From contig OX597819.1 in assembly GCA_951406725.2 (NCBI GenBank), positions 87,420,001-87,484,000 on the forward strand: a stretch of 64,000 nucleotides of DNA, read 5' to 3'. Under the pieces are notes generated by a model. It did no database searches, was not told the origin of the DNA, and saw nothing but the letters and a program-made list of their open reading frames with translations. Each line of letters opens with the position of its first letter. The first letter of the stretch is position 1. The DNA comes from Octopus vulgaris. Its lineage: Eukaryota. The position numbers and the translations under genes are program-made. Below are positions 18,706-23,051 of this stretch, one piece after another.

Positions 18706-21700
18706 GAGATAGACAGAAAGAGAGAGAGAAACGGGCAGAAAGAGAGAGACGGACAGAAAGAGAGAGAGAGAGACGGACAGAAAGAGAGAGAGAGAGAGAG
18801 AGAGAGAGAGAGAGAGAGAGACGGACAGAAAGAAAGAGAGAGAGAGAGAGAGACGGACAGAAAGAAAGAGAGAGAGAGAGAGACGGACAGAAAGAAAGAG
18901 AGAGAGAGAGAGAGACGGACAGAAAGAAAGAGAGAGAGAGAGAGAGACGGACAGAAAGAGAGAGAGAGAGACGGACAGAAAGAGAGAGAGAGAGACGGAC
19001 AGAAAGAGAGAGAGAGAGAGACGGACAGAAAGAGTGAGAGAGAGACGGACAGAAAGAGTGAGAGAGAGACGGACAGAAAGAGTGAGAGAGAGACGGACAG
19101 AAAGAGTGAGAGAGAGACGGGCAGAAAGAGAGAGAGACGGGCAGAAAGAGAGAGAGACGGGCAGAAAGAGAGAGAGACGGGCAGAAAGAGAGAGAGACGG
19201 GCAGAAAGAGAGAGAGACGGGCAGAAAGAGAGAGAGACGGGCAGAAAGAGAGAGAGACGGACAGAAAGAGAGAGAGACGGACAGAAAGAGAGAGAGAGAG
19301 ACGGACAGAAAGAGAGAGAGAGAGACGGACAGAAAGAGAGAGAGAGAGACGGACAGAAAGAGAGAGAGAGAGACGGACAGAAAGAGTGAGAGAGAGACGG
19401 ACAGAAAGAGTGAGAGAGAGACGGACAGAAAGAGTGAGAGAGAGACGGACAGAAAGAGTGAGAGACGGGCAGAAAGAGAGAGAGACGGGCAGAAAGAGAG
19501 AGAGACGGGCAGAAAGAGAGAGAGACGGGCAGAAAGAGAGAGAGACGGGCAGAAAGAGAGAGAGCGACAGAAAGAGAGAGAGACCGACAGAAAGAGAGAG
19601 AGACCGACAGAAAGAGAGAGAGACCGACAGAAAGAGAGAGAGACCGACAGAAAGAGAGAGAAACCGACAGAAAGAGAGAGAAACCGACAGAAAGAGAGAG
19701 AAACCGACAGAAAGAGAGAGAAACCGACAGAAAGAGAGAAATAAACAGAAAGAGAGAGAGAGAGATGGACAGAGAGAGAGAGAGAGAGGCGGACAGAAAG
19801 AGAGAGAGAGAGAGAGGCGGAAAGAAAGAGAGAGAGAGAGAGAGAGGCGGACAGAAAGAGAGAGAGAGGCGGACAGAAAGAGAGAGAGAGGCGGACAGAA
19901 AGAGAGAGAGAGACGGACAGAAAGAGAGAGAGAGACGGACAGAAAGAGAGAGAGAGACGGACAGAAAGAGAGAGAGAGACGGACAGAAAGAGAGAGAGAG
20001 ATGGACAGAAAGAGAGAGAGAGATGGACAGAAGAGAGAGAGAGAGATGGACAGAAAGAGAGAGAGAGATGGACAGAAAGAGAGAGCGAGGCAGACAGAAA
20101 GAGAGAGATGGACAGAAAGAGAGAGAGAGGCAGACAAAGAGAGAGAGAGAGGCGGACAGAAAGAGATAGAGAGAGAGACGGACAGAAAGAGATAGAGAGA
20201 GAGACGGACAGACAGAGAGAGAGAGAGAGACGGACAGAAAGAGAGAGAGAGACGGACAGAAAGAGAGAGAGAGAGACGGACAGAAAGAGAGAGAGAAAGG
20301 CGAACAAAAAGAGAGAGAGACAGACGGAAAGAGAGAGAGACCGACAGAAACAGAGAGAAACCGACAGAAAGAGAGAGAAACCGACAGAAAGAGAGAGAAA
20401 CCGACAGAAAGAGAGAGAGAGATGGACAGAAAGAGAGAGGGAGATGGACAGAAAGAGAGAGGGAGATGAACAGAAAGAGAGAGAGAGAGGCAGACAGAAA
20501 GAGAGAGAGAGGCGGACAGAAAAGGAGAGAGAGGCGGACAGAAAAGGAGAGAGAGGCGGACAGAAAAGGAGAGAGAGGCGGACAGAAAAGGAGAGAGAGG
20601 CGGACAGAAAAGGAGAGAGAGGCGGACAGAAAAGGAGAGAGAGGCGGACAGAAAAGGAGAGAGAGATGGACAGAAAGAGAGAGAGAGATGGACAGAAAGA
20701 GAGAGAGAGATGGACAGAAAGAGAGAGAGAGATGGACAGAAAGAGAGAGAGAGATGGACAGAGAGATGGACAGAAAGAGAGAGAGAGACGGGCAGAAAGA
20801 GAGAGAGAGAGACGGACAGAAAGAGAGAGAGAGAGACGGACAGAAAGAGTGAGAGAGAGACGGGCAGAAAGAGAGAGAGACGGGCAGAAAGAGAGAGAGA
20901 CGGGCAGAAAGAGAGAGAGACCGACAGAAAGAGAGAGAGACGGACGGAAAGAGAGAGAGCGACAGAAAGAGAGAGAGACCGACAGAAAGAGAGAGAGACC
21001 GACAGAAAGAGAGAGAGACCGACAGAAAGAGAGAGAGACCGACAGAAAGAGAGAGAAACCGACAGAAAGAGAGAGAAACCGACAGAAAGAGAGAAATAAA
21101 CAGAAAGAGAGAGAGAGAGATGGACAGAGAGAGAGAGAGAGGCGGACAGAAAGAGAGAGAGAGAGAGAGAGGCGGAAAGAAAGAGAGAGAGAGAGAGAGA
21201 GAGAGGCGGACAGAAAGAGAGAGAGAGGCGGACAGAAAGAGAGAGAGAGGCGGACAGAAAGAGAGAGACGGACAGAAAGAGAGAGAGAGACGGACAGAAA
21301 GAGAGAGAGAGATGGACAGAAAGAGAGAGAGAGATGGACAGAAAGAGAGAGAGAGATGGACAGAAAGAGAGAGAGAGACGGGCAGAAAGAGAGAGAGAGA
21401 GACGGACAGAAAGAGAGAGAGAGAGACGGACAGAAAGAGTGAGAGAGAGACGGGCAGAAAGAGAGAGAGACGGGCAGAAAGAGAGAGAGACGGGCAGAAA
21501 GAGAGAGAGACCGACAGAAAGAGAGAGAGACGGACGGAAAGAGAGAGAGCGACAGAAAGAGAGAGAGACCGACAGAAAGAGAGAGAGACCGACAGAAAGA
21601 GAGAGAGACCGACAGAAAGAGAGAGAGACCGACAGAAAGAGAGAGAGACCGACAGAAAGAGAGAGAGAGATGGACAGAAAGAGAGAGAGAGATGGACAGA

Positions 21701-23051
21701 AAGAGAGAGCGAGGCAGACAGAAAGAGAGAGATGGACAGAAAGAGAGAGATGGACAGAAAGAGAGAGAGAGGCAGACAAAGAGAGAGAGAGAGGCGGACA
21801 GAAAGAGAGAGAGAGAGACGGACAGACAGAGAGAGAGAGAGAGACGGACAGAAAGAGAGAGAGAGACGGACAGAAAGAGAGAGAGAGAGACGGACAGAAA
21901 GAGAGAGAGAGAGACGGACAGAAAGAGAGAGAGAGAGACGGACAGAAAGAGAGAGAGAAAGGCGAACAAAAAGAGAGAGAGACAGACGGAAAGAGAGAGA
22001 GACCGACAGAAAGAGAGAGAGACCGGCAGAAAGAGAGAGAAACCGACAGAAAGAGAGAAACCGACAGAAAGAGAGAGAAACCGACAGAAAGAGAGAGAGA
22101 GATGGACAGAAAGAGAGAGGGAGATGGACAGAAAGAGAGAGGGAGATGAACAGAAAGAGAGAGAGAGAGGCAGACAGAAAGAGAGAGAGAGAGGCGGACA
22201 GAAAAGGAGAGAGAGGCGGACAGAAAAGGAGAGAGAGGCGGACAGAAAAGGAGAGAGAGGCGGACAGAAAAGGAGAGAGAGGCGGACAGAAAAGGAGAGA
22301 GAGGCGGACAGAAAAGGAGAGAGAGATGGACAGAAAGAGAGAGAGAGATGGACAGAAAGAGAGAGAGAGATGGACAGAGAGATGGACAGAAAGAGAGAGA
22401 GAGACGGGCAGAAAGAGAGAGACGGGCAGAAAGAGAGAGACGGACGGAAAGAGAGAGAGATGGACGGAAAGAGAGAGAGACCGACAGAAAGAGAGAGAGA
22501 GAGAGAGAAAGAGAGAGAGAGAGAAAGAGAGAGAGAGAGAGAGAGAGAGAGAGAGAGAGAGAGAGAGAGAGAGAGAGAGAGAGAGAGAGAGAGATGGACA
22601 GAAAGAGAGAGAGAGACGGGCAGAAAGAGAGAGACGGACGGAAAGAGAGAGACGGACGGAAAGAGAGAGACGGGCGGAAAGAGAGAGAGATGGACGGAAA
22701 GAAAGAGACCGACAGAAAGAGAGAGAGAGAGAGAGAAAGACGGACAGAAAGAGAGAAAAACAGACAGAAAGAAAGAGAGAGAGAGAGAGAGACGGACAGA
22801 AAGAGAGAGAGAGAGACGGACAGAAAGAGAGAGAGAGAGACGGACAGAAAGAGAGAGAGAGAGACGGACAGAAAGAAAGAGAGAGAGAGAGAGACGGAAA
22901 GAAAGAGAGAGAGAGAGACGGACAGAAAGAGAGAGACAGACAGACAGAAAGAGACAGACAGAAAGAGAGAGACAGACAGAAAGAGAGAGACAGAAAGAGA
23001 GAGACAGACAGAAAGAGAGAGAAACGGACCAAAAGAGACAGAGAGACAGAC
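18706..23051. repeat. 4.3-kb purine-strand complex satellite: (GA)n spacers punctuated by CGGACAGAAA-type cores
   Basis: Units of ~18-30 bp with core variants CGGACAGAAA, CGGGCAGAAA, CCGACAGAAA, TGGACAGAAA and GGCGGACAGAAAAG; almost no T on the plus strand. Confidence 0.97.

What the first reader, a model, noticed from the sequence alone, without database searches (positions are those of the whole stretch)
18706..23051. 4.3-kb strand-asymmetric GA satellite with nested higher-order duplications
Seen: (GA)n spacers alternate with a small vocabulary of ~10-bp cores, and each variant is locally homogenised in runs (exact 20-bp periods at ~19121-19260 and 19571-19740; 22-bp GGCGGACAGAAAAGGAGAGAGA runs at ~20510-20660 and 22190-22320; 24-bp GAGTGA-containing runs). 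Rare marker units recur at kb scale: AATAAACAG at 19740 and 21095; GAGCGACAG at 19562, 20957 and 21547; GGCGAACAAAAA at 20299 and 21961; GGGAGATGAACAG at 20461 and 22141. These imply overlapping segmental duplications of about 0.6, 1.36-1.4 and 1.66-1.68 kb. Most cores keep a CpG although the surrounding DNA is CpG-depleted. Inference: a microsatellite evolving into a higher-order satellite. It could form H-DNA or R-loops, bind GAGA-type factors, or give a 4-kb polypyrimidine RNA if it lies in the minus-strand gene's intron.
Basis: partly seen in the sequence, partly recalled or inferred. Interest (0 to 1): 0.7.

Follow-up and report, generated by a model that had tools for sequence, protein, structure and literature searches.

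The report
Octopus intron GA-derived minisatellite
A 4.3-kb repeat in a large intron of an octopus gene is a single-locus minisatellite that likely grew from a GA microsatellite by slippage plus a few block duplications; at least a dozen arrays of this kind occur in the same genome, so it is likely ordinary neutral repeat DNA.

Summary
The array is real as described: 18706-23051, 90% purine on +, 193 core+(GA)n units, and every marker position is correct. Repeated blocks of 10 unit-runs far exceed shuffles. It is not a satellite family: 71 of 75 genome-wide core matches lie here. It sits in the 64.7-kb first coding intron of an Octopus two-PH-domain gene, with the pyrimidine strand as sense. 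The three offsets need only one ~1.4-kb tandem duplication plus one ~0.3-kb non-tandem copy, on stepped, not continuous, diagonals. Twelve other GA-derived arrays of 1 kb or more were found, some CpG-rich and some with internal blocks. CpG richness is explained by amplification of a few CpG-bearing cores. H-DNA-type motifs cover only 14%, and a sense RNA would be the weak R-loop strand. Both edges appear in short-read contigs of several studies; the interior order was not tested. One side lead: the AG-free tract ends in an acceptor, 3 bases and a consensus donor, a possible in-frame microexon, with no transcript support. Verdict: new member of a known kind, interest 0.2.

The parts
18706..23051 (+). 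Whole array: 193 units of a ~9-14-bp core (CGGACAGAA family) plus (GA)n; 90% purine on +; no AG dinucleotide on the minus (pre-mRNA sense) strand
18706..19257 (+). Left segment: CpG-free first unit, then runs of CGGACAGAA, CGGACAGAAAGAA, GAGTGA-type and CGGGCAGAA units; a local ~350-bp repeat (107 bp exact, 19007-19113 vs 19359-19465)
19258..20788 (+). First copy of the higher-order block: alpha 19258-19661, beta 19662-20001, gamma 20002-20788
20789..21312 (+). alpha2 + beta2; beta aligns to the first copy with 1 mismatch and 5 gaps in 386 columns
21350..21646 (+). Exact 297-bp copy of 20760-21056 placed between beta2 and gamma2; youngest event, or the most likely place for an assembly error
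21671..22404 (+). gamma2; 2 mismatches and 10 gaps against gamma1 in 705 columns
22405..23051 (+). Degenerate tail with a 109-bp pure purine tract (22486-22594, best H-DNA-type mirror, 34-bp arms), ending in CpG-free CAGACAGAA units that look ancestral (inferred)
18683..18694 (-). First AG 3' of the tract on the sense strand: acceptor CAG (18694-18692), 3 bases AGT (18691-18689), donor GTGAGT (18688-18683); candidate in-frame microexon without transcript support
   Evidence: sequence
9367..9689 (-). Coding exon, residues 385-493 of the Octopus vulgaris two-PH-domain protein P0001
9690..64000 (-). Part of the 64,746-nt phase-0 GT-AG intron that hosts the array; upstream exon ends at G000:C6:87494436
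18296..18535 (+). Left flanking copy of a ~240-bp MITE-like repeat, inserted in another dispersed repeat
23140..23394 (+). Right flanking copy of the same repeat (77% identical over 111 bp), between 8-bp near-duplicates ATGTAGAC/ATGTAGAT

Best explanation
This is a single-locus intronic minisatellite of about 190 variant 20-24-bp units that likely grew from a GA/GACA microsatellite and is likely neutral. Shown: unit structure, runs of identical variants, block order alpha-beta-gamma-alpha-beta-(alpha copy)-gamma, locus-specific core, intronic position, sister arrays elsewhere. Inferred step 1: an interrupted GA tract fixed a core (CAGACAGAA to CGGACAGAA) and the core plus spacer became the slipping unit. 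Inferred step 2: point variants were spread to neighbours by one-unit slippage, and spacers changed by 2 bp. Inferred step 3: one ~1.4-kb tandem duplication. Inferred step 4: a ~0.3-kb copy landed 590 bp downstream, by template switch or conversion, or by a 590-bp duplication followed by loss of beta. Length changes far outnumber substitutions between the copies.
For: Blocks of 10, 10 and 9 runs against a shuffle maximum of 5 in 1000. Between duplicated beta and gamma blocks, 3 mismatches against 15 gaps in 1091 aligned columns, with gaps mostly of 2 bp or whole units. 131 of 176 framed cores within one substitution of one consensus. 71 of 75 core matches in this array, 4 single hits elsewhere, control 4. 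The CpG-free version occurs 79 times genome-wide, 2 of them in this array's tail. 12 of 14 other loci analysed hold purine-strand arrays of 1 kb or more, each with its own core; a 5.0-kb array on C9 has CpG cores and a ~950-bp internal repeat. Both edges lie in short-read contigs of 4 of 4 runs each. The same patterns are described for mouse minisatellites (PMC1929145, passages) and Arabidopsis variant telomeric repeats (PMC11406999, passages).
Against: No allele comparison was possible, so length variation is not shown. The interior was not checked against reads. Among the 15 arrays analysed, this one has the longest repeated block (10 runs) and the longest exact off-diagonal match (297 bp), so it is at the ordered extreme. 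Arrays of 1 kb or more are uncommon: 0 in 560 kb of 56 evenly picked stretches. A good acceptor-donor pair sits at its 3' end. Neutrality is inferred from lack of contrary evidence, not tested.
Confidence: 0.8

Rival explanations
1. The array exists but part of its internal order, above all the exact 297-bp copy, is an assembly artefact such as a mosaic of two alleles.
For: 0 differences in 297 bp (about 14 units), while the other duplicated blocks differ by one gap per 70-80 bp. No laid contig reaches the interior.
Against: beta and gamma copies differ by many unit-number changes and private variants, as expected of real paralogous blocks, although two alleles would also differ so. Other arrays show exact internal matches of 126-205 bp at 0.6-2.5 kb offsets. 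Both edges are confirmed.
Confidence: 0.12
2. The array acts as a 4.35-kb AG-free polypyrimidine tract that feeds a 3-nt (Ser) microexon at 18691-18689, inserted in frame between M384 and M385, possibly in neurons.
For: No AG on the sense strand for 4.35 kb. The first AG is CAG followed by 3 bases and GTGAGT; the intron is phase 0; it is the only such site in 64,746 nt; 0 of 59 other CT tracts have this. UCU/CUC plus UGC is the described microexon enhancer (bioRxiv 10.1101/2024.09.17.613571, passages).
Against: The site passes only the laxest of three thresholds (70% pyrimidine) and was found after the fact. Background is 0.17-0.35 such sites per 65 kb of strand. The only UGC overlaps the acceptor itself. 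None of 5 homologous proteins has an inserted Ser (one is a partial model). AG-poor pyrimidine strands are general in this class (0-4 AG in 11 of 14 other loci).
Confidence: 0.06
3. The array is a selected regulatory element: an unmethylated CpG-rich island, H-DNA or R-loop former, or GAGA-factor platform for the host gene.
For: CpG o/e 0.98 against 0.39; 732 overlapping GAGAG; 14 mirror motifs.
Against: CpG o/e in 14 similar loci spans 0.0-1.85, with 6 at 0.8 or more and 6 at 0.2 or less; 8 of 16 new Cs in (GA)n create a CpG. CpG-loss variants did spread: TGG in 24 and CAG in 8 of the framed cores of the common types. Mirror motifs cover 14%; only 3 pure purine tracts reach 30 bp. The sense RNA is the weak-hybrid strand (PMC11667243, passages).
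Confidence: 0.05
4. The array is one copy of a dispersed satellite family or was carried in by the flanking MITE-like copies.
For: Two copies of one repeat flank it in the same orientation at 170 and 90 bp.
Against: The core is locus-specific. The two copies are 77% identical, like other copies in the window (71-79%). The left copy splits another repeat (3 colinear intact copies), and the right has its own 8-bp near-duplication, so they are separate insertions. No such copy lies near 14 other arrays.
Confidence: 0.02

Closest known systems
Mouse and human minisatellites with variant-repeat maps (MMS24/26/30/80; PMC1929145, passages read)
   Same: Unit of 10-100 bp, array of 0.1-20 kb, single locus, intermingled variants, turnover by tandem duplication and contraction of units with occasional block duplication.
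   Different: Here half of each unit is itself a slipping (GA)n spacer, so unit length varies; 50% GC and strongly purine-skewed; polymorphism not shown.
Variant telomeric repeat arrays of Arabidopsis (PMC11406999, passages read)
   Same: Monomer homogenisation in runs and higher-order blocks of several distinct units, explained by slippage and unequal crossing over.
   Different: Intronic, not telomeric; 20-24-bp unit from GA rather than a 7-bp telomerase unit.
[quoted passage not shown]
   Same: A purine/pyrimidine simple repeat of a few kb giving a higher-order repeat by something other than single-unit slippage.
   Different: That event was observed and possibly over 100 kb; here only two copies of a 1.4-kb block are inferred from one assembly.
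H-DNA-forming homopurine mirror repeats (PMC11667243, passages read)
   Same: Strong purine/pyrimidine strand asymmetry, intronic.
   Different: Interrupted by C-containing, non-mirror cores about every 20 bp; only 14% is mirror repeat.

Membership tests
Minisatellite (VNTR type) | Tandem unit of about 10-100 bp, array 0.1-20 kb | tested here: met
   Periods 20-24, 4.35 kb; definition from PMC1929145
Minisatellite (VNTR type) | Intermingled variant repeats at a single locus | tested here: met
   40 core types; 71 of 75 core hits here
Minisatellite (VNTR type) | Turnover mainly by unit gain and loss rather than substitution | tested here: met
   15 gaps against 3 mismatches between duplicated blocks
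Minisatellite (VNTR type) | Length polymorphism between alleles | not testable with these tools
   Only short-read contigs were offered; they reach the edges only
Satellite DNA family with higher-order repeats | Monomer shared by many or very long arrays | tested here: not met
   Core confined to this 4.3-kb locus
Satellite DNA family with higher-order repeats | Multi-monomer block repeated in tandem | tested here: met
   alpha-beta-gamma twice, alpha three times; only two full copies
H-DNA motif | Homopurine mirror repeat | tested here: inconclusive
   14 short motifs covering 14%; one strong tract at 22486-22594; structure not tested
Neural microexon (SRRM3/4 type) | 3-27-nt in-frame exon with acceptor, strong donor and upstream pyrimidine tract | tested here: met
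   at the laxest threshold only
Neural microexon (SRRM3/4 type) | UGC between branch point and AG | tested here: inconclusive
   Only UGC overlaps the CAG; the motif is present in 74-79% of such exons
Neural microexon (SRRM3/4 type) | Inclusion in transcripts and conservation | tested here: inconclusive
   No Ser in 5 protein models, which would often miss 3-nt exons; no RNA reads laid

The most novel reading that the evidence does not exclude
A recently expanded minisatellite supplies a 4.35-kb AG-free, CU-rich tract that activates a 3-nt microexon in an octopus PH-domain gene, so repeat length would tune splicing and repeat expansion would be a route to new microexons.
Probability: 0.06. Interest if true: 0.7.

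Novelty: new member of a known kind. Interest (0 to 1): 0.2.

Why it matters
As it stands it is a clean example of the microsatellite-to-minisatellite-to-block-repeat path. With its 12 sister arrays, each built on an independent core, it offers a small natural series for measuring slippage, conversion and CpG decay in a mollusc, and probably a highly informative marker. It does not point to a new mechanism. It would matter more if the 3-nt exon at its 3' end were used, because that would tie repeat expansion to the birth of a microexon in an animal with a large nervous system.

Tried and rejected
a 49-base pattern built from the consensus found nothing because that exact phasing is not in the array; uninformative. 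Searches failed on coordinates and were corrected. Long ORFs over the array (up to 1489 codons, open in all three minus frames) are a by-product of the near absence of T on +; rejected as genes without further test. Pfam scan of 43 of 258 window ORFs gave nothing above cut-off; no RNA holder listed, so expression was not tested. Short-read contigs could not reach the interior. The reversed-pattern control (87 hits) is not a true null, since the reversed motif is also a natural GA variant. No G3-type quadruplex motif on +. MITE-mediated origin rejected. Paper searches: octopus + minisatellite, minisatellite origin terms, VNTR/polypurine terms, cephalopod tandem repeat terms and gene identifiers showed no description of this locus or of octopus GA-core arrays in their listings; subscription papers and unread supplements may hold one. 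PMC13282606 was read in part 1 of 3 only; its supplements were not opened.

Full report
Observation. The window holds one long tandem array at 18706-23051 (TRF periods 20, 22 and 24, about 200 copies). It is 90% purine on + with only 48 T, and has CpG o/e 0.98 against 0.39 elsewhere in the window. Splitting at (GA)n runs gives 193 units in 40 core types. In a fixed 15-base frame that caught 176 cores, 42 match GACGGACAGAAAGAG exactly and 89 differ by one base.

Internal order. Collapsing neighbours with the same core leaves 106 runs. The longest repeated strings are 10, 10 and 9 runs, against a maximum of 5 in 1000 shuffles. The map reads: left segment, alpha1 beta1 gamma1, alpha2 beta2, a copy of alpha, gamma2, degenerate tail. 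beta1 and beta2 differ by 1 mismatch and 5 gaps in 386 columns; gamma1 and gamma2 by 2 mismatches and 10 gaps in 705; the alpha copy at 21350-21646 is identical to 20760-21056. The offset is 1311 at the end of beta and 1624 at the start of gamma, and the difference is the inserted copy. This history is inferred. Using the calibration quoted in PMC13282606 (distance 0.09 = 25 million years; part 1 of 3 read), 3 mismatches in 1091 columns would put the large duplication well under a million years ago; this is a rough figure, since some gaps hide substitutions and conversion would lower it.

Context. An exon at 9689-9367 (minus) encodes residues 385-493 of a 901-aa Octopus vulgaris protein with two PH domains. 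The upstream exon lies outside the window, giving a 64,746-nt phase-0 GT-AG intron. Protein models from O. sinensis, O. bimaculoides and Argonauta run across the same junction. The array is therefore intronic, and the pre-mRNA would carry the pyrimidine strand. Expression was not tested.

Family or single locus. A degenerate 23-mer for the CpG core has 75 matches in 2.8 Gb: 71 in this array and 4 single hits, equal to the control of 4. The CpG-free 23-mer has 79 scattered matches, 2 in this array's right tail. This fits local growth from a common GA/GACA seed.

How unusual. In 56 evenly picked 10-kb stretches (560 kb) no purine-skewed tract reached 1 kb and 2 reached 500 bp. Of 20 stretches picked at motif hits, biased towards multi-hit loci, 4 held tracts of 1 kb or more. 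A gapped pattern gave 168 matches; the 100 listed fall in 12 loci including this one, and 68 were not listed. Of 14 loci then analysed, 12 hold arrays of 1 kb or more, with different cores. The 5.0-kb array on C9 is a close analogue: 90% purine, CpG core CAAGCG, homogenised runs, ~950-bp internal repeat. Many have weak or no block repeats; the window's array is the most ordered of the 15. The count is a lower bound.

CpG. Across the 14 loci CpG o/e runs from 0.0 to 1.85. In a pure GA tract 8 of 16 possible new Cs sit before a G. The 155 CpGs here are copies of a few cores, and TGG and CAG variants, which are the expected deamination products, also spread. In octopus, methylation falls mainly on gene bodies and is somewhat higher in satellites (PMC9476566, passages), so methylation here is plausible but untested. 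No selection for CpG is needed.

Non-B structures. Mirror motifs with arms of 10 bp or more cover 608 of 4346 bp; the strongest is the 109-bp purine tract at 22486-22594, similar to an ordinary (GA)32 elsewhere in the window. RNA-DNA hybrids are much stronger for purine RNA (PMC11667243, passages), and the sense RNA here is pyrimidine. That GAGA factor is an insect protein is recalled, not tested.

Is it real. The left edge lies in contigs of 4 of 4 runs laid (0-3 differences) and the right edge in 4 of 4 (0-8 differences): 7 runs of 6 studies and 4 organism labels. X1 is identical to the window and may be its source, which leaves 5 studies. Only about 45 bases of each edge were laid; the interior order and length remain untested.

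A side lead. The sense strand has no AG for 4.35 kb. The first AG after it is CAG, followed by AGT and GTGAGT, which would add one Ser in frame. It is the only such site in the intron, but only at the laxest of three thresholds; background is 0.17-0.35 per 65 kb, and 0 of 59 other CT tracts have it. The described microexon enhancer is UCU/CUC plus UGC (bioRxiv 10.1101/2024.09.17.613571, passages). None of 5 protein models shows the Ser. I give it 6%.

Flanks. Two copies of a ~240-bp MITE-like repeat lie 170 and 90 bp from the ends, but they are separate insertions and absent near 14 other arrays. The label hAT-like rests on the terminal repeat and the 8-bp near-duplication and is recalled, not tested.

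Comparison and verdict. Mouse minisatellites (PMC1929145, passages) and Arabidopsis variant telomeric arrays (PMC11406999, passages) show the same runs and block duplications; a higher-order expansion of a TCTTCT satellite was seen arise in mice (PMC11789640, passages). The array works like, and meets the tested features of, a minisatellite; polymorphism could not be tested. Searches (listings only) showed no account of this locus or class in octopus. The scan's notes showed other nested arrays in this genome but none of this kind. New member of a known kind; interest 0.2.

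Noticed in passing
window 7298-7777, 18296-18535, 23140-23394, 26606-26681, 59610-59851: At least 5 copies of one ~240-bp MITE-like repeat in this 64 kb, against 3 in 560 kb of evenly picked DNA (slightly different E-value cut-offs): local enrichment of about tenfold.
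   Followed up: partly
L051 753-5796 (G000:C9, near 45.53 Mb): 5.0-kb GA array with CAAGCG cores and a ~950-bp internal duplication; closest analogue of the finding.
   Followed up: partly
L054 6900-10000 and L118 1-5790 (G000:C1, near 216.79 Mb): Purine-skewed array of about 9 kb with regular 127/256-bp periods built on GA spacers; further along the path to a true higher-order satellite. A 3-kb (AAAG)n tract lies nearby.
   Followed up: partly
L114, L116, L117 (G000:C6 72.43 Mb, C16 39.18 Mb, C18 42.85 Mb): 2.1-2.5-kb GA arrays with independent CpG cores (CAGCGAC, CAGAGACGGG, CGGGC).
   Followed up: partly
L056 6109-9992: 3.9-kb GGTT/GGCT/GGTC complex array, a non-GA example of the same architecture.
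   Followed up: no
window 23490-23640: Fragment of a very high-copy repeat (contig depth in the millions) ending at a (TATC)n tract.
   Followed up: no
L102 1-10000: An evenly picked stretch is wholly a 369-bp satellite with 99% matches.
   Followed up: no
window 40142-41128 (+): Short ORFs with a weak reverse-transcriptase match (E 0.016, below cut-off); probably a decayed LINE piece.
   Followed up: no
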